A model generated the notes under the pieces. It was not told the DNA's origin and searched no databases. It saw only the letters and a program-made list of their open reading frames with translations. Both the position numbers and the translations under genes were made by a program. From a virus, in IMG/VR virus record IMGVR_UViG_3300045988_029408, positions 1 to 64,000 of that record: a stretch of 64,000 nt of DNA, one strand, 5' to 3'. Below, one piece after another: positions 1,563 to 62,752 of the stretch (the first letter of the stretch is position 1; every line of letters begins with the position of its first letter).

Positions 1563-4500
1563 TGGCATAGTATGCAACAACAGATGACCTTAGGGAATTA
1601 ACTAGTTTAGTACGAAGCTTATAGGGTGATGTAACCACATTAAACAACAATGTTGGTGAACTTGATACATTAGTAGAAAGAATTAATCACTTATCTACTT
1701 TAAAAGATGTTACCATTACTTATATTACAGAAGGAGACTTAATATAGTATAGTAGTGATGGTACATGGCATAATGTATCTCCAGCTGTATTGGCAGATTA
1801 TATTAGTGGCGAAGGTGGTATTATCGACACTGCTGTAGTTAAAGCATTAATAGCATCAGAAGGCGGTAAGTTATTCTTAAGTAAACTATACGATGATACA
1901 GCATTGGGTGTTATTACATTTAAGAATAGTGTAATAGCTGATAGTATGATATATGCTAAAAAAGGAATTACTATTGGTAATTATATATCAGGACTACTTG
2001 GAGATGGAGCTATAATTGATGAACACGGCAATATAGAAGCCGGAAGCTTAACCCTTAGAGAATTCTTATCTGTACCAGAATTACGTTTTAACAGAGTAGA
2101 TGTGGTAAGTGGTGAATTGTGGAATTCTATCGCTTTTGGTACTATTGAATCAGTAGATACTAAAAACTAGATAGCTACTCTTAAACTAGAAGAAGGCGAA
2201 TATAGTGGGTTACATGTTAATGATATATGTAGAGGTATATGGCATAATATTAGTGGAGTAAATGAAACTACTCCAGGTACAGATGAATGTGGGTTTGAAA
2301 AAATGCAGGGATTTAGTACTGCTTACTTTACCCCTATTGAAATTCTAGATGAAAGGGGTAAACAATTTAGATATTCACTAAAGCCTAATACTACTCAACA
2401 TCCTACTGCTAATATGAAATTTGCAGTATATGGTAATTTCTTAGATGAAACTAGACAATCTAGTGCTTACTCTACTAGAGATTATAAAAGATTCTTAAAA
2501 GATGTTAGTACTTGGGCAATAGATTGGACTAATATAGCATCACAATTTGGTAAAATAGAAGGGTTGACTATTCCTGGAGCCCCAGATGATGGGGTACTAC
2601 ATGGGGATGGTGCTTACTTAACTAATGTCTACATGACAGGTGCTATGATTTAGTTTACTCCAGAACAAGAAGATAGTCTCAAAGGATAGGATGCTTACTC
2701 GGTAAATCTTACTAAAGACAACCTATCTGTTATTGTGGATAATGAATTAAACATATTAGATAAGTATAGCTAGCTAGATAATTTAACATTTGGAGTACAA
2801 GCTTTTAAAGGTACTACAGAATTATCATATTCAGATGTATATGCAGAAGGGTCTTACTTCTTAACTTGGGAAGCAACAGGTCTTAAGTGTACGATGGCTA
2901 ACGGTATATTCACAATTACAGATATTTTATCTGTTACCAATAGTCCTCATATAGACTTGTTAATTAACTGTGAAGGTAATGCTACATTTAAAAAGACAGT
3001 AGTATTATAGTTCCATTTACAACCTAATTCATTATGGACTACATATAACGATAACGATGCTATACCTGATAGACCTACTGGTGATGGTACTACCAACGGT
3101 TGGCATAGAAATTATACAGCATCTGCAATATGGATGTCTACTAAAAGCTCTATCGAAGTAGATGATCCTAATGTAGAATGGGGAGATCCTAATAGATTCC
3201 GTGGTGCTTCAGTAGCTGGTAAAGATGGTGAGTATACTAGATTCGCATATACTGAATCAAGCGTACCACCACCTACTCCTATAGGTGATACTGTTCCACC
3301 TAAAGACCCAAACAATAAATACACTTGGACTATGGACCCACCGCAAGGAGATGTGGAAAAAGGTATTTGGGTATGGCAATCAATACAAACTGTATATTCT
3401 GATAAATCTACATCTGGATGGTCAGAACCTTTCCGTTTAACAGGAGCTGATGGTAAAGATGGTAATGACGGTAATGATATAGAGTTTGTATATAAGATTA
3501 CACAAAATAATTCTGCACCTACTTTACCAGCTAATAGTAATAGAGATGATTATACAGAACCAAACAATGGTTGGTATGATAACCCAAAAGGTGTTAGTGA
3601 AACTTGGCAATACGAATGGGTAGCTCAACGTACCAAACCAGCAGCTAAAGCAGGTACTGGTAATTGGGGTAACTGGCAAGGTCCTACTTTATGGTCAAAA
3701 TGGGGTGAAAAAGGTATGGATGGCGATGGTTATGAATATATCTACTATCGTACACAAGCTGAAAACATTGCACCTGATACTCCTGTAGCTGCTAATAATA
3801 CAGATGATGAAGCGCGTCCTCAGGCATTTATTAATGGTGTAGCACAAACTACTACTTCTCCTGGAGGAATGTATTGGACTGATGATCCCCAAGGAGTTAG
3901 AGAAAACTTGATGTTTGAATGGGTAAGTGTACGTAAAAAAACAGATGGTGTATGGTCAGCGTTTCAAAAACCAGCTATATGGGCTAAATGGGGTGAGACT
4001 GGTTTAAGTGGCGGTAATTATCAATATAGATATAAAATATCAGCTACTACTCCAAGTATACCTACTGATCAAGCTGCGTCTGGATGGTCTGAAGATTCTG
4101 AAATGGTTCCACCAGAAGGTCAATATGTATGGCAAATTCATAGATTTAAAAACGCAGATGGTTCATTAACTGCTTGGACTGGGTTAATAAGACTTACCGG
4201 AGCCGATGGTAAAGATGGTGAAGATGGTAATAGTATTGAATTCTTATATGCTCGTAATAACGATAAGGATAATTATCCTCAAAAGCCTAATACTAATCAA
4301 ACTACAGACTGGACAGGTACTGGACCAGATGGTACATAGTGGTTTGATAATCCACAGGGAGTAGATGATTCACATAGATATGAATATGTAACTCAAAGAT
4401 ATAAAGATAAGAGTACTTAGAAATGGGGAGATTATTCACAACCAGGCTTATGGTCTGTATTTGCAGATAAAGGTAAAGATGGGGATGGATACGAATATAT

Positions 4501-6574
4501 ATTCGCTAGGTTCTCTAGTTATGATCAAGCAGCTCTATGTAGTAGAAATGAGCAATATTATCCAGCTTCTCCTACTTATGGATCACAATACTTAAATGGT
4601 GATTATCAACAAGATGATTATATACCTACTAAAACTTGTAAAGGTGCTACTTTTACTTATACAGATAATGGAGTAAGCGTAACAGAAAGCATACCATATC
4701 AAGTATGTTGGACACGTAAGAAAGAAAATGGTAAATGGGGAGATTGGAAGGACGGATTCATTTGGACTAAATGGGGTAAAGACGGTCAAGATGGACAAGA
4801 CGGAGATAAAGGAGATCAGGGTGATAAGGGAGAACCAGGAACACCAGGTACTGATGCTACTACTTATATAATTACTCCTGGAGCAGCAACTATACGTCTT
4901 ACCAGAACTTCTTCTTATGAACCTAGTAGCATGACATTTAGAGCATACAAGAAAACAGGAACAGGTAGTCTGTCTTCTGTATCTGGTTACTGGGAAATAT
5001 ATGGTAGTAATAGTCACGCTCCAACAACCTCTTCAGAAGGTACTGAAGTGGGTGGTGGTTGGTCTGGTGTTTCCAATATTACATTTAATATATCTAGTTC
5101 TACTAAGTATAACTATTATACTGTAGCATTTAATCCTACTCAGTATCCTATTTATAATGGAAATCCTGTAGCAGCATCAGCAACTATTACAGTTGTAGTT
5201 GATGGTTAGGATGGACAAGATGGATCAGCTGCTAATACTCAATATACAGATATTAGATTTAGAGGAGTTTGGAATTCATCTACTAGATATTACTACGCTA
5301 CAGCATCATCAATAGGTTTAACTAACTATGAAAATCCTAGTAATGCATATGTTAGAGATTAGGTAATTTACAAAGGTGGCGTATATCTAGTTAAGTATGT
5401 TAATTCTGGCGGAGTATACGGTCAAACTCCTAGTTCTAGTTCAGCATATTGGGAATTAGTGTCTAGTGTTAGTGCCATGGCAATTAATACATTGTTAGCA
5501 GATAATGCTGTATTAGGTGCATTTCATTTCTCTAATAATGTATTTTGGTCAGGTGATGGAGGTACTTCATCTAGTGCAGCTAAACTATATATGAACAGTA
5601 GTACTGGTGAATTTAGAGCATCTAATGGTACATTTACTGGTACTGTGAACGCTAAAGCTGGTACATTTAAAGATCTATATTTTGAGAACTGTTTCACTAA
5701 AAATAGGTTTCTAAATATTACGCATCTAAATAGATCTTCATCTGATATAGATGATCCTAAATATGGTGATACATATTGTTCAAATAGTAGGTTATATTCT
5801 TATCAATCAGATGGTTGGGAGGATGCATTAGAATTATACACTAGTTCTACTAATGCAATAAGCGTATATGCTAATCCTTCTTATTCTAAAATTATACATA
5901 TGACTGGAGCAAAAGGCGGTTATACAAACAAATTGATATTACCAAGTGTTAGTGAAAATAATTATGGTACTGAAATGACTATTGTTTGTAGACAATATCC
6001 GTCAACTAGATCTATTACTGGAACAGAAGGTAATTTGCACATAGTTACATATGATAATAGAGGAAATACCTATACAGATGAAAGAACTTTAGTTTTAGCT
6101 AAAGGTAATAACGGCGGTATATTAAACGTAGTTAGTACTCCATAGGGATGGCTCATTACAAATTGTTCACACGATGGTTGCTCAGATTCTGGTGTTATTC
6201 TAAAGTTTAAAGTTTAGTATAATGGTAGTTCATATGCAGTGGTATCGTCTAGTATACACAGTATATATAACTTTGGTAATAGTAAAATTAGTTGTACTAG
6301 AAGTGGTGCAGGAGCTGTAGGAATAACTATAACTAGTGGAACTAGTTACTTTTGGGCTCCGTGTGATGTACGAGTATACGGAAGTTATAGAACTGAAGGT
6401 ATATCTGGTAGTAACGCTCATCCAATATATGCAACTTTAATATCATATAGTACTGGAGTTACTGCTTTGAACATAAGTGTGCAATTAGCAGATGATGATA
6501 CTTTAAATGATGGTAATTTCTATGTAGATATTTACGGTGGTTTTGCACAATATATAGGAAACAATCCGACTTAA
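1562..6574 (+). CDS. Tail fiber-like protein (1,670 codons) with internal repeats and a collagen-like tract
   Basis: Six frame-2 track ORFs (1790, 2303, 3134, 4931, 5459, 6239) plus the gaps were read codon by codon. 14 in-frame TAGs, no TAA/TGA until TAA 6572-6574. Repeated modules include TGADGKDG(N/E)DGN(D/S)IEF at 3443 and 4199, and KG(M/K)DGDGYEYI. Confidence 0.85.
4775..4849 (+). repeat. Collagen-like G-X-Y triplet run inside the fiber gene
   Basis: Translates as GKDGQDGQDGDKGDQGDKGEPGTPG, eight consecutive G-X-Y triplets. Confidence 0.8.
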
Positions 6575-13527: not shown

Positions 13528-13666
13528 TGAAATTGCGTATCATAATATTTTCAGTTTATCATATAATAGCCAACTACTGAGAAGGACCTTACCACTTGGT
13601 AAAAAATATAAATAATTTATTAAGGGTTAGTAGTGAAATATCGAAAGCTCTTTGTAATTTCAGACT

Positions 13667-14695
13667 ATGAAGAAATTTAAGAATTTATATTAGAAGATAA
13701 CAGATTTAGATAATATAAAGCTAGCTCATCATAATGCTAGAAAGAATAAAACTCATAGAAACGATGTAAAGAAAGTAGATGCAGATATAGAAAGATTTTG
13801 TAAGTAGATACATGATATGTTAATCAATCATACTTATAAAACTTCTGAATATTTTACTTTTAAGTTATATGAACCTAAAGAAAGAATAATATTTAAACTA
13901 CCTTACTTTCCAGATCGTATAGTACATCACGCTATTATGAACATAATGGAACCTTTGTGGATCAATTAGATGATACCTTAGACTTATAGCTGTATTAAGA
14001 AAAGAGGAATTCACAAAGTTCTTAAGTAGATATAGCATGATCTGAAAGATAGAAAGAATACTAAATACTGTCTTAAAATAGATATTAGAAAGTTTTATCC
14101 TTCAGTAGATCACGATATATTAAAATAGATAATTAGAATAAAGGTATCAGATAGAGAACTGTTATAGTTGTTAGATGAAATAATAGATTCATCAGATGGA
14201 GTGCCTATTGGTAATTACTTATCTTAGTTCTTTGCTAATCTATATCTATCTTACTTTGATCACTGGGTTAAAGAAGATAAAAACATAAAGTATTATTATA
14301 GATATGCAGATGATATAGTAATACTTTATAAAGATAAAGAGTCTTTGTAGACATTACTTAGAGATATAAAGTAGTATCTAAAAGATAATTTAAAACTATA
14401 GTTAAAGAATAATTATCAGGTATTCCCAGTAGAAAGTAGAAGTATAGATTTTGTGGGATATAAAATATATCATAATTTTACTTTAGTTAGAAAAGCATTG
14501 AAGAAAAGATACTGTAAGAAGAATGCTAAACTGAATAAAAGAAGTACTAACTATAAATATTATAAAAGAAAAATGGCTAGCTATATAGGATGGTTTAAAC
14601 ATGCTAACTGTTATTCTTTACTTACTAAAACTATTAAACATAAAGAGCTATTAGATTACCTGGATATACGTAAAGGAAATAGAACATACGAATAA
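13667..14695 (+). CDS. DGR reverse transcriptase (342 codons, 12 in-frame TAG)
   Basis: ATG 13667 to TAA 14693-14695, frame 2. Only the last 80 codons appear in the ORF track. Joined translation has PDRIVHHAIMNI, KIDIRKFYPSVDH, VPIGNYLS(TAG)FFANLYL and YYRYADDIVIL (YADD at 14303-14314). Confidence 0.9.
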
Positions 14696-25127: not shown

Positions 25128-27524
25128 ATGAAAAATAAGAAATTAAAAAGAGTTCCTCAATATGCTTTCGGCGCTGATGCTATTTCAAATTGGGGAAACA
25201 TGAGTGGAGTAGATAAAGCAAATGTAGTTACACAAGGAGTTGGAGCTATAGGTAGTATGATAGGTAACGCTACTAGTGGATAGAAACCTACAGCAGCTGG
25301 TGTAATAGGTGGAATAGGATCTGGAGCTGCAATGGGTGCTTCTATTGGTGGACCTTGGGGAGCAGTAATAGGTGGAGCTATTGGCGGTATTACTTCAAGT
25401 ATAGGTTCTGGTGGATCTGTTAATGAACAGACTGGTGAGTATGAATTGCCATCAGGAATAGCTGGTCTATTTGGTCATAGTAAAAGTTATATACGTAATA
25501 AGGCTGGTAGAATTAAAAATGGTATTCAAGCTAGACAAATGTCTGAACAAGTAGCAGCTGATTACTACCAAGAAAATGGATATAATGAATTAAGTTTATC
25601 TAAAGGTGGAGTAGTACCATCTACTATGGCTTACTTAGATGATGGTGAGATGTTACGAACACCCGATGGAACTATAGTATCTATACCAGAAGAAGGTAAG
25701 CCCACAGATTCTAATTTATTAAACGTACCTGTTGGAACTCAAGTGTTAAGTGATAAATTAAAAGTTCCAGGAACAAATAAAACTTTTGCCGAAATGGGTA
25801 AGAAATTAATGAAAAAGAGTAATAAGAAAGTTAATGGCATTTACGCAGAGAATAGTCAAATGCTTAATGAAAGAAACAATCAATTAGCTTATTAGAGTTT
25901 ACTAGAATAGCAGGAGTCTTTAAAGAATAAAAAGACAGGTAAGAAACAAGAGATACCTGCATATGAAGAAGGTACCCCTGGTGTATCTGGTAGAAAGAAA
26001 GTAAAACTAAAATATATATACGATCCTATGTTGGGAGGTTTTGGTTATATTGATCCTAATACTGGTGGCTTTGTTGAAATGAACAACGTTCGTAATGATC
26101 TTCTGCCTGATTCTATGTGGGTTCAAAATTACGATAATTCTGAACAAGCTGAACAAGCTGAACAACAATCTTCCGTAGAACAGAATACTGTTCCTAAGAA
26201 TACACTTAGAGCAAAGAAACGTGACTTTCTACGATTACCAGCTAAACAAGGTAAAGCGAATACTCCAACTATATTTAATGACCACGCTTTTGAATTAGCT
26301 GGAACTAAATATCAAATAGGTGATACTTTTGAATATAAAGGAAAGCAGTACAAAGTTATTGGGAACAATGAAGCTGTACCTGTTAACTAGAATACAATAA
26401 ATCCTAAAGATGCGAGAGATGGGGTTGATTGGAATTTGTTTAGAGACATATTTACTCAAGGTGATCCTAGAATTATAGGTCCGGCTGGAGCAGGAAGATA
26501 TCCTTCTAATACTTAGAGTAGAAGAGTAGGCAGATTATCTGATCCAAACAATCCTTACTTTATAGGAAATATGTACATGAATGGTAATTATGGTAATCTT
26601 ACTGCTGGTGAACTGTTTACTTCTTTCAATCCTGAATTTAATACACCTGCTGTAGGTATAATAGGCACTGATACTTCTAGTTCTTCAGTTCCTGTGGCAG
26701 TTCAAGATACTACAGTACCACAAACTATATCTCGTAGTACCACTGGTACTAAAAAAGGTGCGGTACAAACAAGTACGTAGCAACCTGTTCAAGAATAGGT
26801 CAACGCTGGACCGATACAACCTTTTAGCAATAGCCGTCCATCTTTAACTGAATTGGCTTCTAAACCGAATAAAATTTTACCAAAGGTTAATGTTGGCAGA
26901 CCATTTACATATAATCCTTCTACAGACAATGGATTAAGTAATGGGCTAGACATGTCTTCTTTATATTCTACAGTAGCTACTTTGGCTCCTCTATTTGATA
27001 GAGAACGTGCGGAAAAAGTTGATACTTATACATACAATCCTGTATACGGTCCTACTGAATATAACATAGATCCTTTGTTGGAACAAATCACTATGAGTGA
27101 CAGAATTTCTAGATATAATATGGCTAATATCAATCCTAATACTGGAGCTAATATGGCATTTGGTTTATAGTCAGCTGTTAATAGAAATAAAGCTATAGCT
27201 AACGCATATGCTACTAAAAACAATGCTGAAAATCAAATGGCATTCAATAATGCACAAATAGCTAATCAGTGGGGACAGCAATATTCTGATGCTAGACATA
27301 CTGCTGCCACTGAATACGCCCAGAATAAAGCAAATGCTAGAAATATAAATAGAAGGAATTTTGCTTCGGCTTTGAACAATTGGGGAGCTTCATTGAGAGA
27401 TAAAAAACAAACAAGTATGGATATGGCAGCTTTGGAGATGTTGCAACCTATGCTTAATTATGGTACAGAAGATAATGTACTTAACAGAGTTAATAAAATA
27501 TTAAATAGAGTAAAAAATGGTTAA
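25128..27524 (+). CDS. Virion internal/ejection-type protein with glycine-zipper segment (798 codons)
   Basis: ATG 25128. Frame-0 ORFs 25332, 26028, 26571, 26853 and 27237 are joined across 8 TAGs. TAA at 27522-27524. Contains GASIGGPWGAVIGGAIGGITSSIGSGG. Confidence 0.75.
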
Positions 27525-38500: not shown

Positions 38501-41500
38501 CTATGATGTAGGTATATCATATACTTAGTAATGAAAACACTAATAGTGCTTTATTGAACAGATTCTTTACTGACTTTGTTAAGTATATTCATAATTTTGA
38601 AACTCATTCTTACACTACTACTGCTAGAAACATAGGTTCAAATGGCGAATATAGATATGGAGCTACTACTAAGAACGGAAGTTTAGATGCAATCCAAAGT
38701 AAACTAGACAATAAATGGAAAGGATCTATGATTGTTGCGCTTGATATCATTTCTGATAAATTAAACAGTGTAGCTACTACTAGTGAAGCTGGCAAGTTAT
38801 TTAGAAATATGATAACTCCGCTAAAATAGGCTATGAACAAATTGAACATAGAAAACTTAGAGTCTATAAAAGACGTACTTAGAGAAGCAGATAAACTTTA
38901 TCAATTTGGAACTATTACTGGCGATTTATAGCAAGATGCTGTAGCTTGGCAGAAAGCTATGCGTAATGCATCTAAAAGTGGTAAGGTTGGTAAAAATTTG
39001 CTTTTACAACCTTTAAATAAGTTAAATACATCTAATGTTTCTGAATTTAGACTTCTAGAATCTTCCAATAAACGTTAGCAAGGAGTATATAAGAAGTTAG
39101 ATGAGATGTTTACTGAAAAAGGTATTCTTACTTAGTTATCTCAAATGTTTGGTTCTTATATTAAGTCTATACCATCCACACAATCTCAAAAAGGTCCCAG
39201 AAATACCAAAATATATTCAATAGGATAGTATAATTTCATAACTAGAACTTTTGCCATACTTGCTAACACTAAAGAATGGGTTGATAAGATGTTGAATAAT
39301 ATTTATAATTCTCATTCTGTGTGGTTAAGTACACTAAAAAATTTAGGTGGAGCTAAACAAGTACAAGTACACACAAAACTTAGTACAGTATTAGATGATG
39401 AATGGAATGACTCTGTAGCAGATAAAGAAGTAACAGAACTAGAAGATTTGACAAACAGGTTTATATCCATATGGTCAGGTAAACATGTTACACCAGCGTT
39501 GGCTAATAAAAGATTTGCTGCTGATATTGAAGGCATACCGATATTTGAAAACATAATCAATGATAATTTAGATATAAATCCTAAAGTAATAGATGTATTT
39601 GTTGGTTATTTGGCAGATGAAATTATGGCTATATCAGATGCTAGATACACTAGAGATTATTTCATTGAAAAGTTGAACTAGGCAACTAATAGCAATTACA
39701 CTATTGATTCGTTCTCAAAATTGTCCTCATTGTAGTAGGAACAAATATTTAAAAATAACCCAGAAGCTGCTAAGTTACTTAGACTATTAGTAAAAACGTA
39801 TCATTACGTAGAAGGAGAGCAGCAATGGTTATACGATGAAGTTAATGATAGATATTACAGAAGAGCGTTCCATATAGATTTACGTTCTGGTAAAAAAGGT
39901 CCTAGAGGATACGAATTTAGGCACTTTAAAGATATAGGTAAATCTATAAATCTTTCTTCTAACGTGGTGCAAAAAATATCTTCTAATATGTTCGATACAG
40001 ATTCTCGTCAAAGTTCTATAGATTATGTTTATAATATGATAAACCGAGAAAGTATCAGAAAACAAATAAGAAGCATGTTAAATGATAATATTGCATACGC
40101 TATCGTTAAACTACAACAATTAAAAGCTATTATAGTAGATGATGCTGGTAATATAACAAGTAATCGTTACTTGCCTTCAGATTTAATTAAAAAATATATT
40201 TATGGTAAACAATCTGTTAATGTAAACGAATTAAGCGGTAATGATTATTATAGAGCTATTGGTTCTGCTGTAATACAAGGTATGTCAGATATATCAGAAT
40301 TTGAGAAACTATGTCATGGAGATATTGCGTATCATAAAAATATTGACGGTGTAACTAAACGTTATTCAGGTATTGTTTCTACAACTTCTCTTACTTCAGA
40401 GAAAGGTACTATGAGAAACGTGTTTGACGAAGAAGATAGATTATTCGATAGTAACACATATAATTCTGTTACTTTGAACACCACAATGGTTGTAAATCAA
40501 GCTAAGTATAAAGGGGAAGCATACAGAGCTCTTGGGCTATCTGAGAACATGGTTAAAATATATTTGGAAGATAATAATATAAAAGTAAATATTGACACTT
40601 CTGACGTATTAGATGCTGATGGTAACATAAAAGATAATTATCGTAAAGCTAAATTGATAAATCGGTTACTGCAATTTAGAGAAGAACGACGTTTGAAAGT
40701 AATGATCAACGGAGAACCAATGTCTGATGCATAGTTATTAGATGTTGCAGTAAAAGATTTTGAAAACAGATACGAAGGTTATCTTAAAAACGACCCATCA
40801 GATGCTCAAAGTTGGGTTACCAGTCAAATGTTTAGAGCTTTACAATAGCGAAAAGGGGCGTGGAACGATGTATCTGAAGCTATATATAATCTACTTACTT
40901 ATTATGACAAATTCGGATCTGATAAGCTTACTCCTAGAACTATAAGGCTTATTTAGGATAATATATGTAAAGTGCTTAATATAAATTATGACGAATTAGT
41001 AAAAAAAGCTAAGGCATACGATGCTAATAAAACTAATTTAAACAGTAAAGAAGTGCGCGATTATAAAGGGTGGATTTTTGGTATTGCTGATAAATTCAAA
41101 TTTGAATCGCCATCTCTTAAGTATATTTACTACGGATACGATTAGGGTAGAATGGATGGACTTACTACTCCAATTTATGATAAATCTTCTTATAAAGTAT
41201 TATGGAAGATTGAAGTAGAAGGACATGAAATACAACAGTTATACGATTTTATGCAAGATAGTAATGTAGACGTGGTTAAACAAGAAACTGCCGTTAAATC
41301 AGGAGGTTTACCTAACTTTGAATTGTTCGATTTAAACGGTAAGGTGGATAGAGCTGCACTAAATGCTTCAGTAATTCAATCGCAATACTTTTCTTTGTTA
41401 GGAGACCAGCTTAATACAGCTTCACATCACACAAACGACGCTAATCTATTGACTCAATTTATGAAAGTGGCAATGATGAACACAAATAAAGACAGACGAT

Positions 41501-53287: not shown

Positions 53288-53591
53288 AATTAATATAATG
53301 TTGCATACTATCACTAGTTATTTTAAACGTTTCAATTCTTTCAGAAAAATTACCATTTTCATCCGTAAATCCTACTGAATATAAGAAAGAATAATCTTTA
53401 TTATATTTGAAAGCTTTAAACATTTCTTTAATTGAATTTCCTATAAACTTACGTTTTTTATTCCATTCAATAAATTCTCCATGCAACAATACACTTACTA
53501 ATTTGATTGGAATCAATAATAACTTTCCAAGTATTAGAGCTAAATCAAAAGGTAATGCTATTACTTTACCTATAGTTTTTAATAGTTTCAT
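53253..53591 (-). CDS. Small membrane protein
   Basis: Intact 112-aa ORF with a hydrophobic N-terminal half. Confidence 0.65.
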   Translation of the reverse strand: MKLLKTIGKVIALPFDLALILGKLLLIPIKLVSVLLHGEFIEWNKKRKFIGNSIKEMFKAFKYNKDYSFLYSVGFTDENGNFSERIETFKITSDSMQHYINYAKTSLKQESA

Positions 53592-54546
53592 CTAACCAAT
53601 TTTTTATTTCTTCAAAGCTATTTGCTTTAACAGCATCAGATACGTCTTTAGCTTTGAATTTTTTGTTAATAAACATTGCTTCTAAGCCTGTTTCTCGGCT
53701 TAATTTGCGACTTCTTTTTACTCCAGAAGTATCTCTATCGAAAAGTATTACAATACGCTTAAAACGCGTCTTAAGTTGCTCTAATACATCTTTAGGTAGA
53801 AATGTACTCTCTGAAGATGGAGAAACTGCTGGATAACCCATTTCATGCAAACACATAACATCTTTCATGGACTTTGTGATAAATAATATATCACCTTTCT
53901 GAGGCAACTGCTCATAGCCTTGGATATCATAGTCTGTAAGATTGTTTCTCCACTTAGTATATTTATCTGCTAATGGTCTATATATTTTAAAGTTATTATA
54001 GACCTTATATGCATACATTGGATTTTCTCGTTTATAAGTACCCTTTACTATTCCGTTACATAAATAATATTTAATACTATTTACATTGAATTTCTTTAGA
54101 GTATTTATAGAAATATTAAACTGTTTCCAGTAATTGATATCTACATCAGTAAATTCTTGACGTACTACACCAATTACTGTTTCAGTTGGCTGTATATATT
54201 GCTTAGAGCTAACGAGTTTAGTGTTGTTAGTAATGTTTAATTTATCTACTATATCAGATAATATATCATTATATTCTGTTTTACCAGTAAATAATGATAC
54301 AAATTTAATTACATTACCACATTCACCTGTTCCATGATCTTTAAAAAGTAGTTGTTTAGTACGTTTACTATAGTAAATACCAAAGGATGGATTCTTATCC
54401 TTCCTAAATGGACTATTGTATATCATACCTACTTTAAATTGACCTATATATTTTGCATATATATCATATTCTGTTACTTTAGAAAGTATCCAATCTAGAG
54501 TAATATTATCTGGGAGTTTTGCTCGCTTTCTACTATACATATGCAA
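53566..54546 (-). CDS. DNA primase (TOPRIM domain)
   Basis: FITKSMKDVM ... SPSSESTF ... VILFDRDTSG supplies the TOPRIM Glu and DxD. The N-terminal NSPFRKDKNPSFG region is primase-like. Confidence 0.7.
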   Translation of the reverse strand: MHMYSRKRAKLPDNITLDWILSKVTEYDIYAKYIGQFKVGMIYNSPFRKDKNPSFGIYYSKRTKQLLFKDHGTGECGNVIKFVSLFTGKTEYNDILSDIVDKLNITNNTKLVSSKQYIQPTETVIGVVRQEFTDVDINYWKQFNISINTLKKFNVNSIKYYLCNGIVKGTYKRENPMYAYKVYNNFKIYRPLADKYTKWRNNLTDYDIQGYEQLPQKGDILFITKSMKDVMCLHEMGYPAVSPSSESTFLPKDVLEQLKTRFKRIVILFDRDTSGVKRSRKLSRETGLEAMFINKKFKAKDVSDAVKANSFEEIKNWLDETIKNYR

Positions 54547-54560
54547 TCTGTTTTAGTTTG

Positions 54561-54696
54561 CTACTAGTCGTGGAATCGAACCACGCCTATCCAGAGATAG
54601 ATTTTTATTTCTGCTGTGCAGGCTCACGCTTCCATAAATTATCTAATATCCTTAAATTGATAGTGCCATATAGGATTGTTACAGATCCTCCTAGTA
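54561..54696 (-). tRNA. Oversized tRNA-like element 1 (136 nt); no canonical cloverleaf found by eye
   Basis: Canonical T-arm CGTGG-TTCGATT-CCACG (54569-54585). Acceptor pairing is TACTAG(G) with (A)CTAGTA, or a perfect 7 bp CTACTAG/CTAGTAG one register over. U1:A72 and discriminator G. GGAT/ATCC D-like stem. The triplet CTA falls at nt 34-36 from the 5' end (54661-54663), but the flanking 5-mers do not pair. Confidence 0.5.
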
Positions 54697-54709
54697 GTTG
54701 AAACTATTC

Positions 54710-55501
54710 TTATTTATTAAATAGTTTCGATATTCTTTCTATAGTTGATTCTGCATCTTCATCAGTTAAAGCTTCGCCTGTCTGAATGTAGATGTCAGAA
54801 GTTGTTTCTTTCTTCATTGGTCTAACTGAATGTCCGTATCCCCAATTCATTTTAAATTTAGCATTCCAGAATTTAAACATCCAGTATCTAAAGAACCAAG
54901 GAGATATTGCTGTAAGTATTTGTCCTTTAATTAAAGGATCTTCAAACTTCTTAATTATAACTTCAACTCCAAGAAATCCTATAGGTTCTCCGTTAAAATA
55001 ACCAGGATCTTCATTATCTGCATATGCAGATATTTGAACACGATATCCTTGGGATTCTAGCATATCTATTATTCTCATAGCAGTATATGCACGAATCATA
55101 AGATTTTCAGCTGAACACCAGCAATTCTCACATATAGAAATATGAAGTTTAACGAACTTACCAGTACCTATACCATGTGTGGGTATTCTTTTCTTTAGGC
55201 AAGGTAGACCTTCTATGTACCGATCAAAGTTCATATCATCTCCATCAGAATCATCGTACTTATATTTATGTTTACGACCTCCTAGATTTATATCCTTTTC
55301 TATTTTCTTTAGATTATCTAAACCTTTGGTATAACTATATTTAGAATCATGTATTTCTGCTGTAGATAATCCTCTAAAACCAGGGTCATCGTGATTTTCA
55401 ATATTATCTATTTCAGCAGGATTACCTCCTTCAATATTGTCACATTCTCTGTAAAATTCATCTAATGAATTTATATTAATGTTTAAATTCAGTTTTTTCA
55501 T
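54710..55501 (-). CDS. Hypothetical protein (possible partner of the upstream MoxR-like ATPase)
   Basis: Intact 263-aa ORF with a 1-nt start/stop overlap with the ATPase gene. Confidence 0.65.
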   Translation of the reverse strand: MKKLNLNININSLDEFYRECDNIEGGNPAEIDNIENHDDPGFRGLSTAEIHDSKYSYTKGLDNLKKIEKDINLGGRKHKYKYDDSDGDDMNFDRYIEGLPCLKKRIPTHGIGTGKFVKLHISICENCWCSAENLMIRAYTAMRIIDMLESQGYRVQISAYADNEDPGYFNGEPIGFLGVEVIIKKFEDPLIKGQILTAISPWFFRYWMFKFWNAKFKMNWGYGHSVRPMKKETTSDIYIQTGEALTDEDAESTIERISKLFNK

Positions 55502-56880
55502 TACGCTGCCGTTTTAAATTTTGCTGTTACAGTAGAATTTGAAAAATCTTTACGTATAGCTTCAATTATTGAAGCAGTACTTTGTTTAGTTTTATTTTCT
55601 TCTACTTTTTGAATATATTGTTTTACTATATTCTTTTCAGTATCAGACCAGTTAATAATAAGCATATCTTTCCAGTCTAACATACCTACTTTCTTCATCT
55701 TTTCTGCTGCTTGAATCATACGAGTAGATGCAATACGGCGTAATGAATTTATTTTAATGCAGTCGCGTAGTAAATAAATATAATCTACTACTTCGTGATC
55801 AAATTGTGACTCATATTTAACAGAGTAATTTACTTCAATTATTGCTCCAGTAAAACGGTCAATTGTTGAAGCATCTAGTTGGTTATTAGCAACATACTGA
55901 CGGTCTGCTCCATTACCAAAAGTATTTGATGTAGCAATAATAATACATTCAGGATGTCGTAAGACAGTTCCTGTAGTAGTTTCTATTTCACCGTTTGCTA
56001 ATGCTGCATTAATAACCTGTGCTACAGATGGATCGAGCGCAGTCATCTCATCTATAAGGATTATTGACTTCTTAGCATAGAATTCAGCAAACTTAGTTGC
56101 TTCACGAGTAGGATATTTATATCCTGTAAATTCTGTTGCAGAAGTACCAATACCACAAGAAATACATAAGTAAGGAATATCTAGTTCTTTAGCTGTATTA
56201 CGAGCTATAGTTGATTTACCACAACCAGCTGGACCAACCATCCAGATGTTATTCATACCTGCTTTAATTAAACTTTTAAGCTTGTCTTCTGGTTCTAGTG
56301 AACTAAATGAGAATTGAATTTTCTTTAATTCTTCTTTTTCCTTTTCTTTTTCCTCTTTCTTTTTAAATTCTTCTTCTAATTTGTTAAGCAATTCTTTGAT
56401 TTCTGTTTTGCTTCCAAATTGTTCTAGTGCTTTTTTCTCTATTTGTTTCTTTTTTTTAAGATCTGTTATATTAGCTATTTTAATAGCTCCACTACACACT
56501 TTATACTCTTGTCCAGTACAATTTGTAATAGTATATTCTCTGGATTGTCCTTTCTTTCCTTTTACTTCTGAAGTTAATATTAAGAAAATACCTTGTTGTT
56601 CTTGTTGTTTTCCTTTAGGATTATTATATTTTATACTACCATAAAATCTATTTCCAGGCTTTAAATCATGAACATCTGTATTATGATTAACTAAGGTGCT
56701 ATCTTTAGATATATTGTCTTCTTGATTTTCAATTTGCTCATCGTGCTCTGTAGCTTCAGATGCATCAGTATTTTGAGTTTCTGTAGTTACATCTTTAGGA
56801 TCTTTTAATTTCTGTTCTTTCGCACTAGATTTTGCAGGTTGATCTTTTTCTATATCTTGAATATGTTCTATTTCTACCAT
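55501..56880 (-). CDS. MoxR/AAA_5-like ATPase
   Basis: Walker A GPAGCGKS, Walker B ILIDEM, and ...IIIATSNT...DRF typical of AAA_5. Confidence 0.7.
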   Translation of the reverse strand: MVEIEHIQDIEKDQPAKSSAKEQKLKDPKDVTTETQNTDASEATEHDEQIENQEDNISKDSTLVNHNTDVHDLKPGNRFYGSIKYNNPKGKQQEQQGIFLILTSEVKGKKGQSREYTITNCTGQEYKVCSGAIKIANITDLKKKKQIEKKALEQFGSKTEIKELLNKLEEEFKKKEEKEKEKEELKKIQFSFSSLEPEDKLKSLIKAGMNNIWMVGPAGCGKSTIARNTAKELDIPYLCISCGIGTSATEFTGYKYPTREATKFAEFYAKKSIILIDEMTALDPSVAQVINAALANGEIETTTGTVLRHPECIIIATSNTFGNGADRQYVANNQLDASTIDRFTGAIIEVNYSVKYESQFDHEVVDYIYLLRDCIKINSLRRIASTRMIQAAEKMKKVGMLDWKDMLIINWSDTEKNIVKQYIQKVEENKTKQSTASIIEAIRKDFSNSTVTAKFKTAA

Positions 56881-56900: not shown

Positions 56901-56934
56901 AAAAAAGAATAAGGGTAGCTTTTACACTACCCTT
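56901..56934 (-). terminator. Intrinsic terminator after the SSB-like gene
   Basis: AAGGGTAG / CTACCCTT 8-bp stem, followed on the minus strand by ATTCTTTTTT. Confidence 0.6.
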
Positions 56935-56960
56935 ATTTATTAATAATGATCTACTTTATA

Positions 56961-60597: not shown

Positions 60598-62619
60598 TTA
60601 AAACAACGTTAGTTGTCTTGGTTTTAATTCTTCAATGATCTTTAACGCTTCCTTTAAATAGTAGCGATAATTGATCTTTCTTTCTTCTATAGGTTTATTA
60701 TCAAATTTATTTAGTATAGTAACACCAGATGCAGTAAGTAGATTAGTATAATTACTTCTTCTACCTTCTTCATCTTTAGTACACTTATACAAATAAGGAC
60801 CATTAGTAGATGCATAGAATCTATTGATTCTTTGTATCAGTTCTCCATTATATTCTACAGAGAATTTCTTATCTACTTTCTGGTAAGTAAGGAACTTCTT
60901 AATATCTTTACAATTGTAGATAGTATCTTTTACAGGAATACCATCAACAAAATAATCTCTAATAGCTTCAGGGATAATCTTTGCAGACATTCCCTTACCA
61001 AGTAAAACTTTAGTAATAAACATACCTTTTTCTTTGATATAATCATCTTTAATCATATCTAAAGAAGTATAAGGTTTCTTCTTTTTATTTAGAGCTTTTT
61101 CTGGTTTAGTTTCAAACAACTTTTTCATTGCTTGATAACCTTCTTTTACAGCTATATAATCATTAATAGCATATTGATACATAGCTTCAAAACGATCTTC
61201 CTCTAGAGTTAGTTTCGTTTGTTGTTCCCATTCCTTACATATACTTTGTAATTTTTCATACAGATTCTTCTTAAGAAGAACAAATAAACCATCTGTATTT
61301 GCCTGTACTATTCTACAGCCAATATCAGATAATCTTTCTGCTAACATAAGTAATAGTAATTGTCCATTTATTCTAATCTGCATTACTGCGAAAGGACTAT
61401 AACAGAAATTATGTTCATTCTGTAGATTACCACTAAGACCGTTTAATGCTAATTTAAGCGTTTTATCTTTAGTCTTAATACCATTATGTTTTGCTTCTAT
61501 TCGTTCATCTTTAACTTGATTATAAACTTCTAGAAATTCAGGACCCAAATGCTTTGGGTAGAATTTATACTCTATTATCATACTAGGATACAGAGATGCA
61601 ACATCAATATCTATTAACATTTCATCTTCCTTAGGAATAATTATCTCAGGTTTGTTTTCAGAGTGAATACCACCAACTCCTACAGAATATTTTAATCCTC
61701 TAAATACAAATTTGTTTTCGTATCCTTTTCTACCTGGTGATACTATCTGCTTTTTCATATCAGATAGTACATTACGAAGTATAGGATCTTTATATTCTAT
61801 ATAAGGCAATATTACTTTGTTTAGGTCTATAACATCTGCTGGGCTTCTTAAATCTTTAATATCCCACCATGATAGACCAGTCTTTTCAAGATATTTCTGC
61901 GTTAGAATTTTCATTCCAATGTTTACTCCATCTTTACTTAGTACTCTTACTTTATATTCATCTTCGATAGCTATTCGTAATTCTATATCTTCAGAACACA
62001 GATTTAATAATTTTTCAGTAGAATTAACATCATTCACATTATACTCAATCATCTCTTCTATTCTATCTTCTTCTAGAAATTTATTAAAATCTCCATTGAA
62101 TTCTAGAACATTAGGATATTGCATAGTTACTTGCATTTCCTTCAATCCAACACGTAGTTTTTGTGAATATAACATAGTAAGTATATCAAATGAATCATAC
62201 CATACTTGATATTTCCATTTTTTCCATGCTTCTATGTTGTCATCTGCTTGAGATGTAGTTATAGTTCTACTTAAGTTAAAAATACTATCACATATCCTTA
62301 GATATGGTTTATTTTTAAGTATATTATAATAATCTATTATATAATTAATAATAGGATTATCATAATGTAAATTATTATATCCTGCAAAGATTTTATTTGA
62401 ATCAATTTGAGTTTCAGTAGTATAGAGATCTCCAAATTTTAATGGTATATTAACATTTGGTACACGAAAAAAATCAACTAATTCTGATAATTGATTTTTT
62501 CTGCTTGATATCTCAAACTTATGAAACTTTCCTGATTCAGTATTCTTTGCTGTGCAATGAAATACATTAGGGAAAACTTCAATATCATAGACATATACTG
62601 TTTTTCCTCTTATCTTCAT
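60598..62619 (-). CDS. Family B DNA polymerase
   Basis: Exo I YDIEVFPN, Exo II NNLHYDNPII, Exo III YNVNDV. Pol motif A DVASLYPS, motif B KLALNGLSGNL, motif C NTDG. Confidence 0.85.
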   Translation of the reverse strand: MKIRGKTVYVYDIEVFPNVFHCTAKNTESGKFHKFEISSRKNQLSELVDFFRVPNVNIPLKFGDLYTTETQIDSNKIFAGYNNLHYDNPIINYIIDYYNILKNKPYLRICDSIFNLSRTITTSQADDNIEAWKKWKYQVWYDSFDILTMLYSQKLRVGLKEMQVTMQYPNVLEFNGDFNKFLEEDRIEEMIEYNVNDVNSTEKLLNLCSEDIELRIAIEDEYKVRVLSKDGVNIGMKILTQKYLEKTGLSWWDIKDLRSPADVIDLNKVILPYIEYKDPILRNVLSDMKKQIVSPGRKGYENKFVFRGLKYSVGVGGIHSENKPEIIIPKEDEMLIDIDVASLYPSMIIEYKFYPKHLGPEFLEVYNQVKDERIEAKHNGIKTKDKTLKLALNGLSGNLQNEHNFCYSPFAVMQIRINGQLLLLMLAERLSDIGCRIVQANTDGLFVLLKKNLYEKLQSICKEWEQQTKLTLEEDRFEAMYQYAINDYIAVKEGYQAMKKLFETKPEKALNKKKKPYTSLDMIKDDYIKEKGMFITKVLLGKGMSAKIIPEAIRDYFVDGIPVKDTIYNCKDIKKFLTYQKVDKKFSVEYNGELIQRINRFYASTNGPYLYKCTKDEEGRRSNYTNLLTASGVTILNKFDNKPIEERKINYRYYLKEALKIIEELKPRQLTLF

Positions 62620-62634
62620 AGCGTATAAATTTAG

Positions 62635-62752
62635 TGGAGTATATGGGAATCGAACCCATGATGCCGATTGGTTGCAGCACTATAAATAGTGTATTAGAGT
62701 CTCTCTAATATTCCTCCCTGTACCCTGCGCTTGCCTACTAGCTGAATACCCC
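62635..62752 (-). tRNA. Oversized tRNA-like element 2 (118 nt) containing a CUCUAAU heptamer
   Basis: 7-bp acceptor GGGGTAT/ATACTCC with G3:U70 and discriminator A. U8. D-arm (A)GCT-AGTAGGCA-AGC(G) with GG in the loop. T-arm ATGGG-TTCGATT-CCCAT (62643-62659). About 45 extra nt include the 8-bp hairpin TATTAGAG/CTCTAATA (62692-62710). Confidence 0.55.

What the first reader, a model, noticed from the sequence alone, without database searches (positions are those of the whole stretch)
54561..54696. Second oversized tRNA-like element (136 nt) with Gln-like acceptor features immediately upstream of the primase gene
The minus-strand RNA has a canonical T-arm (CGUGG-UUCGAUU-CCACG) and an acceptor helix: UACUAG paired with CUAGUA plus a G-A end pair, or 7 perfect pairs CUACUAG/CUAGUAG one register over. 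It also has U1:A72 and discriminator G73, as in bacterial tRNA-Gln, a G at position 10, and a GGAU/AUCC D-like stem.

Counting from U1, the triplet CUA falls exactly at positions 34-36 (54661-54663). However, the flanking 5-mers (UAUGG / AAUUU) do not pair. The only clean hairpin before the T-arm is CUAUC-UCUG-GAUAG, which resembles a class II variable arm.

Like element 2, it fills an intergenic gap in the early operon. It begins 13 nt after the upstream stop and ends 14 nt before the primase ATG. Two such elements with the same placement suggest that function has been retained. No other tRNA candidate is visible in the window, although the late module needs a UAG decoder. The decoder may instead lie outside the window.
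Basis: partly seen in the sequence, partly recalled or inferred. Interest (0 to 1): 0.7.

Follow-up and report, generated by a model that had tools for sequence, protein, structure and literature searches.

The report
tRNA-derived punctuation element before primase
This is a broken tRNA-like element in a crAss-like gut phage: it cannot read codons, but it keeps the two arms that tRNA-trimming enzymes recognise, so it most likely marks where the primase message is cut out of a longer transcript.

Summary
On the minus strand, 54697..54561 holds a perfect T-arm (CGUGG-UUCGAUU-CCACG), a 7-bp closing helix, a D-like hairpin and a variable-arm-like hairpin. A strict descriptor finds only this element and its sister (62752..62636) in the window, against 0.005 expected.

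It is not a tRNA and not the UAG decoder.
- ARAGORN finds nothing, with or without introns, and Rfam finds nothing.
- There is no anticodon arm.
- Sibling genomes that carry this same element also carry a conventional tRNA(CUA) elsewhere.

Across Suoliviridae, the slot 14-29 nt upstream of the primase and PolB start codons is nearly always filled. It holds either a genuine tRNA (Arg-UCU, Met-CAU, Leu-UAA) or a tRNA-like remnant of 42-155 nt. The remnants keep the acceptor helix and T-arm but have lost the anticodon arm.

In the remnant families, every stem substitution preserves pairing (4 compensatory doubles, 6 single transitions, none breaking). The T-arm varies less than the interior.

Best reading, inferred and not shown: a phage "t-element". 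Host RNase P and RNase Z would cut it out, separating the upstream mRNA from a primase mRNA with a 20-nt leader. The main rival is a neutral tRNA relic. This would be a new variant of a known kind, of moderate interest.

The parts
54700..54728 (-). 10-bp hairpin (GAAACUAUUU / GAAUAGUUUC). Its loop holds the stop codon of the upstream DUF7192 gene. It ends 2 nt before the tRNA-like element.
   Evidence: dG -8.7 kcal/mol, z -5.0, 0 of 200 shuffles as stable. A comparable hairpin ends 2-7 nt before the tRNA or tRNA-like unit in about 13 of the 24 units examined, at both slots, although not in all.
54691..54697 (-). 5' strand of the closing (acceptor-like) helix, CUACUAG. In the tRNA register U1 = 54696.
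   Evidence: It forms 7 of 7 Watson-Crick pairs with 54567-54561 and is invariant in 13 distinct variants.
54672..54689 (-). D-like hairpin AGGAU-CUGUAACA-AUCCU. There is no G18G19 in the loop.
   Evidence: present in MFE and centroid; one pair changes G:C to A:U in the A' variants, and three variants carry an A-C mismatch. AUCCU can also pair with a second AGGAU at 54653-54649, so this arm is not secure.
54601..54671 (-). Interior insert that stands where an anticodon arm should be. It includes a 39-nt block (54669-54631) shared by types A and A', and a segment (54630-54611) that is replaced in type A'.
   Evidence: alignment. Searches find no anticodon arm. The CUA at 54663-54661 has non-pairing flanks.
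54587..54600 (-). Variable-arm-like hairpin CUAUC-UCUG-GAUAG, 1 nt before the T stem.
   Evidence: invariant. Its position fits a class II variable arm. A genuine class II tRNA-Leu(UAA) fills the same slot in cr131_1.
54569..54585 (-). T-arm CGUGG-UUCGAUU-CCACG.
   Evidence: The T loop is the least variable part of such elements across families: 1 of 49 columns varies.
54561..54567 (-). 3' strand of the closing helix, CUAGUAG. G54561 is the discriminator in the tRNA register. It is followed by CAA, not CCA.
   Evidence: In one search, C follows the discriminator in 27 of the 30 distinct units listed, genuine tRNAs and remnants alike; in two of the other three the listed register is shifted.
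54541..54560 (-). 20-nt A-rich leader (CAAACUAAAACAGAUUGCAU) between the element and the primase ATG.
   Evidence: The leader is shared by element types A and B, whose sequences are otherwise unrelated. One search finds no sigma-70-like promoter on this strand inside the element or leader.
53566..54540 (-). DnaG-type primase gene (zinc ribbon plus Toprim). This is the downstream cistron.
   Evidence: PF01807, PF13155. (cr6_1 annotation).
54710..56880 (-). Upstream two-gene cassette: an AAA_5 ATPase (55501-56880) and a DUF7192 protein (54710-55501). It is absent from cr6_1 and present in cr10_1.
62636..62752 (-). Sister element upstream of PolB: GGGGUAU ... AUGGG-UUCGAUU-CCCAU-AUACUCC, followed by discriminator A 62635. 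It ends 16 nt before the PolB ATG.
   Evidence: In sibling genomes with the same flanks it is replaced by a genuine tRNA-Arg(UCU).

Best explanation
The element is a tRNA-derived remnant. It sits in a slot that in related phages holds a working tRNA gene. Its anticodon arm has been replaced by about 70 nt of unrelated sequence, so it cannot decode.

What survives is the coaxial acceptor/T-arm helix with a canonical T loop, plus D-like and variable-like hairpins. That is the part of a tRNA that RNase P and RNase Z recognise.

I infer that it is transcribed as part of the minus-strand replication-module transcript (AAA, DUF7192, element, primase) and is cut out by the host tRNA-processing enzymes.
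- RNase P would cut at its 5' end, around 54696/54697. The upstream mRNA would then end in the 54728-54700 hairpin.
- RNase Z would cut after the discriminator G54561, because CAA rather than CCA follows. This would release a primase mRNA with a 20-nt unstructured A-rich leader.

The sister element would do the same for PolB.

Shown here: tRNA ancestry of the slot, loss of decoding features, retention of the minihelix under pairing constraint in related families, and fixed placement before the start codon.

Inferred: co-transcription, cleavage by RNase P/Z, and any benefit to primase expression.
For: 1. Slot homology.
- In 157 of 167 primase- or PolB-anchored loci, a T-arm ends within 60 nt of the ATG.
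- There are 30 distinct cores. 21 have a perfect 7/7 closing partner, and the acceptor 3' strand ends 14-29 nt before the ATG.
- Genuine tRNAs fill the same slots. tRNA-Arg(UCU) or tRNA-Met(CAU) end 16-18 nt before the PolB ATG. tRNA-Leu(UAA) ends 23 nt before the primase ATG in cr131_1.
- Sibling genomes swap the unit exactly between the same upstream hairpin and the same leader. L102 has tRNA-Arg where the window has element 2, and type A swaps with type B at primase.

2. The minihelix is what persists.
- Remnants from four subfamilies share no sequence except the T loop. All of them keep an acceptor helix and T-arm and lack an anticodon arm. They come from Bearivirinae, Loutivirinae, Boorivirinae and Oafivirinae and range from 42 to about 155 nt.
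- The 42-60-nt versions fold as clean minihelices, with z from -2.9 to -3.8.

3. Pairing constraint in the anticodon-less families.
- I counted 4 compensatory double changes, 6 pair-preserving single transitions and 0 pair-breaking substitutions.
- Variable columns: T loop 1/49, T stem 4/70, interior 52/386. Core versus interior gives Fisher p = 0.023.

4. Same 3' context as the phage's real tRNAs. No CCA is encoded, and C follows the discriminator.

5. No promoter-like site fits between the element and the ATG, and a stable hairpin lies just upstream.

6. Precedent. Plant mitochondrial t-elements were found with the same GGTTCRANYCC motif, and their ends coincide with mapped mRNA ends (PMC1920247). 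RNase P is known to cut phage and operon RNAs that are not tRNAs (PMC11143913).
Against: - No RNA data of any kind. Co-transcription and cleavage are inferred.
- The finding's own family (types A and A') is invariant in the closing helix, T-arm and variable-like hairpin. Its structure therefore has no covariation support of its own.
- One lineage (A' and L057) has a one-base deletion that bulges the T stem. cr10_1's proximal element has a non-canonical T loop, UGCAAGU. Both would be expected of decay.
- Several units are preceded by hairpin-plus-U-run structures that look like intrinsic terminators. If these are efficient, the polycistronic-transcript premise fails.
- cr118_1 (Uncouvirinae, also in Suoliviridae) and crAss001 (Steigviridae) have no element before primase, so the element is not essential for primase expression.
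- Whole-element folding energy is only marginally better than shuffles (z -1.7).
Confidence: 0.55

Rival explanations
1. Neutral relic. A tRNA gene in this slot was disrupted, for example by a mobile endonuclease gene landing in the anticodon loop. What remains is a pseudogene with no function. It looks tRNA-like only because decay is incomplete.
For: - A direct example of the route exists. L138/L144 carry the tRNA-Met(CAU) of L142 interrupted in the anticodon loop by a 445-nt insert. The insert encodes a PD-(D/E)XK endonuclease (PF11645, E = 1.4e-17).
- L134 keeps only a 113-nt stump of that insert. The anticodon is gone in both.
- Signs of erosion: the T-stem deletion in A'/L057, A-C mismatches in the D-like stem of three variants, and an altered T loop in cr10_1.
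- The finding's own family shows no covariation.
Against: - Remnants persist at the same distance from the ATG in four subfamilies, although the primases are only about 53% identical. Their interiors are completely different, and one is trimmed to just the 42-nt minihelix.
- Decay should hit the T-arm and acceptor as often as the middle. Instead the T loop is nearly invariant.
- All 10 stem substitution events preserve pairing.
- Compact phage genomes normally delete useless intergenic DNA.
Confidence: 0.25
2. Uncleaved structured 5' UTR. The element stays attached to the primase mRNA. It acts as a 5' stabiliser, or as a binding site for a tRNA-binding protein that tunes primase and PolB translation.
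For: It sits at a fixed short distance from the start codons of two replication genes. A 39-nt interior block is conserved between types A and A' while neighbouring segments are replaced. The interior of element 2 varies at only 2 of 86 columns across 10 distinct variants.
Against: Genuine tRNAs occupy the same slot and must be excised to function. The interiors are not conserved between types, so no common protein-binding site is apparent apart from the tRNA-like helix itself.
Confidence: 0.1
3. DNA-level role. The tRNA-like sequence serves as a recombination or homing target that marks module boundaries. It could be a homing-endonuclease recognition site or an integration-type site, rather than acting as RNA.
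For: - Mosaic breakpoints coincide with unit borders. Types A and B, and tRNA-Arg versus element 2, are exchanged between otherwise 92-99% identical flanks.
- A homing endonuclease has demonstrably targeted a tRNA in this slot.
- cr6_1 carries many homing endonuclease genes.
Against: - Compensatory changes that keep RNA helices are not expected for a protein-recognised DNA site.
- The closing helix joins two strands up to 130 nt apart, which only matters in RNA.
- No integrase is annotated in cr6_1.
- All units lie on the coding strand.
Confidence: 0.07
4. Non-canonical decoder. It is an oversized suppressor tRNA that reads UAG as Gln, possibly after removal of an intron-like insert.
For: - CUA falls at positions 34-36 counted from U1.
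- It has U1:A72 and G73.
- The late genes are TAG-recoded.
- No tRNA is found in the window.
Against: - No anticodon stem exists, and ARAGORN with introns up to 200 nt finds nothing.
- Rfam tRNA and group I intron models give no hit.
- The region around CUA is absent from the type B, C, D and E elements in the same slot.
- A conventional tRNA(CUA) is present in cr6_1 and in five genomes with this exact element type.
Confidence: 0.02

Closest known systems
Plant mitochondrial t-elements (tRNA-like processing signals; Forner et al. 2007, PMC1920247)
   Same: - Non-canonical cloverleaves that keep the GGTTCRANYCC T-arm and an acceptor-like helix.
- They lie next to protein-coding genes on the same strand.
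- Genuine tRNAs and t-elements are used interchangeably as end-forming signals.
- RNase Z is proposed to make the downstream mRNA 5' end, and RNase P the upstream 3' end.
   Different: - The host system is a bacteriophage of Bacteroidales, not an organelle.
- In the phage the element sits 14-29 nt from the start codon. In mitochondria the distance is tens to hundreds of nt.
- Here the anticodon arm is replaced by a large insert, giving 136 nt.
- Cleavage was mapped experimentally in plants. Here it is only inferred.
Mitochondrial tRNA punctuation (Ojala-type model; from my own knowledge)
   Same: tRNAs embedded between cistrons of a polycistronic transcript are excised by RNase P and RNase Z, and this defines the mRNA ends.
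   Different: Only some cistron junctions in the phage carry a unit: PolB, primase, gp70 of cr6_1, and the gene after tRNA(CUA). Many of the units are non-decoding remnants.
MALAT1/MEN-beta mascRNA-type tRNA-like structures and MHV68 tRNA-like TMER units (from my own knowledge)
   Same: They are tRNA-like folds with defective or absent anticodon arms. Their only known role is to recruit RNase P and/or RNase Z to define the ends of a neighbouring RNA. The MHV68 case is viral.
   Different: These are eukaryotic nuclear systems, and the neighbouring RNA is a lncRNA or a pre-miRNA, not a bacterial-type mRNA. There is no sequence relationship.
Phage and operon RNase P substrates that are not tRNAs: phi80 M3 RNA, P1/P7 C4 antisense RNA, E. 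coli polycistronic mRNAs (reviewed in PMC11143913); T4 'species 1' tRNA-like RNA (from my own knowledge)
   Same: Phage-encoded or operon RNAs with tRNA-like acceptor/T features that are cut by host RNase P.
   Different: None is described as a systematic, slot-conserved unit immediately upstream of replication genes, and none is known from crAss-like phages. A full-text search for 'crAss-like' together with 'tRNA-like' returned one paper, which only mentions low-scoring tRNA pseudogenes.
Canonical or suppressor tRNA, for example cr6_1 tRNA(CUA) at 25904-25977
   Same: It has a 7-bp acceptor helix, a canonical T-arm and no encoded CCA. The trailer starts with C, and a gene start lies about 16-20 nt downstream.
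   Different: The finding has no anticodon arm and no G18G19, is 136 nt long, and is undetected by ARAGORN and Rfam.

Membership tests
Canonical tRNA (including suppressor tRNA-Sup(CUA)) | Anticodon arm: 5-bp stem with a 7-nt loop at positions 27-43 | tested here: not met
   The flanks of CUA (UAUGG / AAUUU) do not pair. ARAGORN finds nothing, with or without introns up to 200 nt.
Canonical tRNA (including suppressor tRNA-Sup(CUA)) | Scores above threshold with a tRNA covariance model | tested here: not met
   Rfam cmscan of 54400-54850 at E<=10 gives no tRNA hit. Only an 11-nt T-loop match to tmRNA appears, at 7.1 bits. Nothing is found at gathering threshold.
Canonical tRNA (including suppressor tRNA-Sup(CUA)) | 7-bp acceptor stem followed by T-arm with G53:C61 and a UUCRANY loop | tested here: met
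   CUACUAG/CUAGUAG gives 7 of 7 pairs. In the tRNA register it is 6 Watson-Crick pairs plus a G-A. The T-arm is CGUGG-UUCGAUU-CCACG.
Canonical tRNA (including suppressor tRNA-Sup(CUA)) | D-arm with conserved G18G19, and total length of about 70-95 nt | tested here: not met
   The D-like loop CUGUAACA has no GG. The length is 136-137 nt.
Intron-containing tRNA (group I intron or bulge-helix-bulge intron in the anticodon loop) | Exon halves that rebuild an anticodon stem-loop, or a recognisable intron core | tested here: not met
   aragorn -i200 finds none. There is no Intron_gpI or other Rfam hit.
t-element (tRNA-like mRNA processing signal) | GGTTCRANYCC T-arm motif within a non-canonical tRNA-like fold closed by an acceptor-like helix | tested here: met
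   GGTTCGATTCC at 54582-54572. The fold is shown. The motif definition is taken from PMC1920247.
t-element (tRNA-like mRNA processing signal) | Lies on the coding strand between cistrons with no separate promoter, so that it is co-transcribed | tested here: inconclusive
   It is on the same strand as both neighbours, with only 13 nt and 20 nt gaps. The sigma-70-type scan finds no promoter on this strand inside it. However, that scan does not cover Bacteroides or phage RNA polymerase promoters.
t-element (tRNA-like mRNA processing signal) | Element borders coincide with mapped mRNA ends, with cleavage by RNase P/Z | not testable with these tools
   No transcript data were available.
t-element (tRNA-like mRNA processing signal) | Interchangeable with genuine tRNAs in the same genomic role | tested here: met
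   tRNA-Arg, tRNA-Met and tRNA-Leu fill the same slots in relatives. The exchange happens between identical flanks.
tmRNA / YrlA-type tRNA-like RNAs | Match to the family covariance model | tested here: not met
   Only the T loop matches tmRNA (7.1 bits against a gathering score of 47). There are no other hits.
tRNA-fragment attachment site (attP-type) | A partner integrase, and identity to the 3' end of a host tRNA gene | not tested
   No integrase is annotated in cr6_1. Host tRNA genes were not compared.

The most novel reading that the evidence does not exclude
Suoliviridae crAss-like phages run a mitochondrion-like tRNA-punctuation system. Host RNase P and RNase Z would make the 5' ends of the PolB, primase and some other mRNAs by excising a unit placed 14-29 nt before the start codon.

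The unit can be a working tRNA or a tRNA remnant kept purely as punctuation. The units behave as exchangeable cassettes, swapped between fixed hairpin and leader borders. Homing endonucleases that invade anticodon loops would convert tRNAs into remnants.
Probability: 0.4. Interest if true: 0.65.

Novelty: new variant of a known kind. Interest (0 to 1): 0.5.

Why it matters
crAss-like phages are among the most abundant viruses of the human gut, and how they organise and process their transcripts is largely unknown.

If these units are processing signals, three things follow.
- Expression of the replication genes would depend on host tRNA-maturation enzymes.
- It would explain why dispersed tRNA genes in these genomes sit right in front of ORFs.
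- It would give annotators a reason to stop calling such loci failed tRNAs or looking in them for missing suppressors.

It also removes a false lead. The UAG decoder of this TAG-recoded phage is a conventional tRNA(CUA) elsewhere in the genome.

If the units are only relics, the finding still documents how homing endonucleases erode phage tRNA genes.

Tried and rejected
- **tRNA with an intron.** ARAGORN with introns of up to 200 nt finds nothing in the window. Rejected.
- **Known RNA family.** Rfam at gathering threshold on the whole window, and at E<=10 on 54400-54850, gives only noise: a TUSC7 lncRNA hit and the tmRNA T loop. Rfam on six related loci gives nothing relevant.
- **Covariation within the finding's own family.** The 13 distinct type A/A' variants are invariant in the key helices. 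The count of structure pairs and RNAalifold are therefore uninformative. I had to rely on other families and on cross-type comparison.
- **First, permissive descriptor scan.** It was useless, with 133 hits per shuffle. I replaced it with a strict version.
- **Group I intron in the L138 tRNA-Met insert.** No Rfam hit at E<=1, and the exons lack 6 nt including the anticodon. I treat it as a disruptive endonuclease-gene insertion, not a functional intron.
- **Promoter inside or after the element.** The sigma-70 scan finds none on the minus strand. That scan does not model Bacteroides or phage promoters, so this counts only as weak evidence.
- **Literature.** Searches for crAss-like with tRNA-like, for phage tRNA punctuation, and for crAss transcriptomics found no description of these elements.
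- **tRNA(CUA) in the closest GenBank record.** I looked in MT835473.1 and did not find it. That record is a partial genome of 85.5 kb.
- **Hammerhead-like CUGA...GAAA in type B.** By eye the core does not fit. Dropped.

Full report
**What the window is.** The region is 95-98% identical to crAss-like phages cr6_1 (NC_055894.1; Suoliviridae, Bearivirinae, Afonbuvirus) and MT835473.1. The minus strand carries the replication module in the standard code. The plus-strand late genes are TAG-recoded; for example, a 5110-aa ORF has 67 in-frame TAGs.

On the minus strand, 54697..54561 contains the following:
- a 7-bp closing helix, CUACUAG/CUAGUAG
- a D-like hairpin, AGGAU-8 nt-AUCCU
- a variable-arm-like hairpin, CUAUC-UCUG-GAUAG
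- a canonical T-arm, CGUGG-UUCGAUU-CCACG

CUA does fall at positions 34-36 counted from U1, but nothing pairs around it. A strict descriptor (perfect T-arm plus a 7/7 closing helix) hits the window only here and at 62752..62636. Shuffles give 0.005 hits on average, and 0 of 200 give two.

One detail needs correcting. The primase ATG is 20 nt downstream of the element, not 14.

**It is not a tRNA and not the UAG decoder.**
- ARAGORN finds no tRNA in the window, even allowing introns of up to 200 nt.
- Rfam gives nothing beyond an 11-nt T-loop match.
- cr6_1 carries a conventional tRNA with anticodon CUA at 25904-25977, in the part of the genome that the window does not cover.
- An exact 46-nt match to that tRNA occurs in 13 IMG/VR contigs. 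Five of them carry this very element type, and two carry its A' variant.

**The primase slot in relatives.** I anchored 80 viral contigs on the primase and 10 GenBank crAss phages on tblastn hits.
- Phages whose primase is 98-99% identical to the window's fall into two groups.
  - The window type (A) has an extra AAA_5 + DUF7192 gene pair upstream.
  - The cr6_1 type (B) lacks that pair. Its element is an unrelated 42-nt minihelix, UAGCCUG-11 nt-UGUAG-UUCGAUU-CUACA-CAGGCUA.
- Further types (C, D, E, and those of cr4_1, cr109_1, cr50_1/cr1_1, cr272_1, cr10_1) range from about 59 to 155 nt. They share nothing but a closing helix, a T-arm and the absence of an anticodon arm.
- cr131_1 has a genuine tRNA-Leu(UAA) ending 23 nt before the primase ATG. 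cr130_1 has tRNA-Gln(UUG) plus tRNA-Leu(UAA), followed by a further minihelix.
- cr118_1 (Uncouvirinae) and crAss001 (Steigviridae) have nothing in the slot.

**The PolB slot.** Of the 80 PolB-anchored contigs, many have a genuine tRNA ending 16-18 nt before the ATG, either tRNA-Arg(UCU) or tRNA-Met(CAU). Four close relatives (L102, L103, L107, L108) carry tRNA-Arg exactly where the window has element 2, between the same hairpin and the same leader. Others carry anticodon-less remnants of 57-117 nt.

Over both slots, 157 of 167 anchored loci have a T-arm ending within 60 nt of the ATG. Several of the exceptions are the type A variant with a one-base deletion in the T stem. Among the 30 distinct cores, 21 have a perfect 7/7 closing partner.

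cr6_1 has a third remnant at 39678-39750, 31 nt before the gp70 ATG.

**Evidence that the helices are under constraint.** The finding's own family is invariant in the closing helix, the T-arm and the variable-like hairpin, so it offers no test. Its D-like stem shows one compensatory change and some mismatches.

In the other anticodon-less families (E, element 2, F1, G), stem variation consists of the following:
- 4 compensatory double changes
- 6 pair-preserving single transitions
- no pair-breaking substitution
- one single-base deletion

Variable columns, pooled over seven families:

| Region | Variable columns |
|---|---|
| T loop | 1/49 |
| T stem | 4/70 |
| Acceptor | 11/98 (all pair-preserving) |
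| Interior | 52/386 |
| Leader | 17/138 |

Core versus interior gives Fisher p = 0.023. This argues for selection on the RNA minihelix after decoding was lost. The samples are small and the sequences are related, so the argument is supportive rather than conclusive.

**Common architecture.** In about 13 of the 24 units I examined, a stable hairpin ends 2-7 nt before the unit. In the window it is 54728-54700, with the DUF7192 stop codon in its loop (dG -8.7, z -5.0). No unit encodes CCA. The base after the discriminator is C in nearly all tRNAs and remnants alike, and an A-rich leader follows. No sigma-70-like promoter fits between the element and the ATG.

Some of the upstream hairpins carry U-runs and look like intrinsic terminators. 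How transcription would pass them is unexplained, and this is the weakest point of the model.

**How remnants arise.** L138/L144 show the tRNA-Met(CAU) of L142 interrupted in its anticodon loop by a 445-nt insert. The insert encodes a TAG-recoded PD-(D/E)XK endonuclease (PF11645, E = 1.4e-17). L134 retains only 113 nt of the insert. The anticodon is lost in both, yet the acceptor, D and T arms are intact. There is no group I intron signature. This is a plausible origin for the roughly 70-nt insert in the finding, but I found no sequence link between them.

**Mechanism and rivals.**

| Reading | Confidence |
|---|---|
| tRNA-derived processing signal: RNase P at the 5' border, RNase Z after G54561, releasing a primase mRNA with a 20-nt leader and leaving the upstream mRNA capped by a hairpin | 0.55 |
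| Neutral relic | 0.25 |
| Uncleaved regulatory 5' UTR | 0.10 |
| DNA-level recombination or homing site | 0.07 |
| Non-canonical suppressor tRNA | 0.02 |

The tRNA ancestry and the loss of decoding function are close to certain. The cleavage itself is inferred.

**Comparison with known systems.** The closest analogue is the plant mitochondrial t-element. It was defined with the same GGTTCRANYCC motif, and its borders coincide with mapped mRNA ends (PMC1920247). Related ideas include mitochondrial tRNA punctuation, mascRNA-type structures, and the non-tRNA phage substrates of RNase P (PMC11143913). The sequence-level features of a t-element are met here. The defining experimental feature, mapped cleavage, cannot be tested with these tools.

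I found no description of such elements in crAss-like phages.

**Verdict.** The feature is real. The decoder interpretation is wrong, and the "retained function / processing" interpretation is plausible. It is a new variant of a known kind. Interest: 0.5.

Noticed in passing
window 13585-13667 (+) and 13667-14695 (+): There is an Rfam RT-17 RNA hit (44.5 bits against a gathering score of 40.4). Immediately after it comes a TAG-recoded 342-aa ORF that is a reverse transcriptase (RVT_1, E = 9.4e-21). This is an RT with its associated RNA motif inside the late module of a crAss-like phage.
   Followed up: partly
window 62636-62752 (-): The sister element upstream of PolB has a tRNA-Ala-type acceptor end (G1:C72, G2:C71, G3-U70, G4:C69, A73). 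Its interior has two perfect hairpins and varies at only 2 of 86 columns across relatives. In L102/103/107/108 it is replaced by a genuine tRNA-Arg(UCU) between identical flanks.
   Followed up: partly
L138 1974-2482 (also L144); L134 2304-2482; intact version L142 2410-2482: A tRNA-Met(CAU) upstream of PolB is interrupted in its anticodon loop by a 445-nt insert encoding a TAG-recoded PD-(D/E)XK endonuclease (PF11645). L134 keeps a 113-nt deletion derivative. From my own knowledge, the PD-(D/E)XK homing endonuclease I-Ssp6803I sits in a cyanobacterial tRNA-fMet intron; whether it belongs to PF11645 was not checked. No intron core was detected here.
   Followed up: partly
L172 (NC_055894.1) 39678-39750 (+): cr6_1 has a third tRNA-like remnant of 72 nt: UUACGGA ... 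GCGGG-UUCGAGU-CCCGC-UCCGUAA. It has no anticodon arm and ARAGORN misses it. It lies 31 nt before the gp70 start, outside the window.
   Followed up: partly
L172 (NC_055894.1) 25904-25977 (-): A conventional suppressor tRNA(CUA), annotated as tRNA-Gln, lies 16 nt upstream of a homing-endonuclease ORF that precedes the terminase. Its layout matches the other units: no CCA, a trailer starting CUA, and a short leader to an ATG.
   Followed up: yes
window 54710-56880 (-): The AAA_5 ATPase plus DUF7192 gene pair is present or absent among phages whose primase is 98-99% identical. It is absent in cr6_1. It is present at the same position in cr10_1, which belongs to a different subfamily.
   Followed up: partly
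L082-L122 (PolB matches 2501-4651) versus window 60598-62619: The PolB match in most close relatives spans 2151 nt, against 2019 nt in the window. This points to a 132-nt extra segment (insertion, mini-intein or intron?) in those genomes.
   Followed up: no
L062-L081 about 2945-2975; L127 640-684; L145 347-391; window 56908-56937 (-): Strong hairpins lie immediately 5' of tRNAs and remnants, and several have U-runs typical of intrinsic terminators. Types C and E share a conserved stem, AUCCUAUAG/CUAUAGGAU, with different loops. It is unexplained how a unit directly behind a terminator-like hairpin gets transcribed.
   Followed up: partly
all units listed: The base after the discriminator is almost always C. 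The trailer reads CUA or CAA, which is CCA with position 75 changed. This holds in genuine phage tRNAs and remnants alike, and is followed by a recurring CWAAC-type leader.
   Followed up: no
window 54640-54620 (-) versus L068/L072 just upstream of their T-arm: The interior segment AUUUAUGGAAGCGUGAGC of the window element resembles AUUAUGGAACCGUGAGC of type D. In type D that stretch supplies the 5' strand of the closing helix. The window interior may therefore contain a vestige of an older element. Its CGUG could also compete for the T-stem 3' strand.
   Followed up: no
L186 (cr10_1) 2172-2418 (-); L168 (cr131_1) about 1125-1185: Some primase-upstream gaps hold two tRNA-like pieces in tandem. 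cr10_1 has a distal perfect T-arm plus a proximal element whose T loop is changed to UGCAAGU. cr131_1 has a small T-arm minihelix right after the upstream stop codon, in addition to tRNA-Leu.
   Followed up: no
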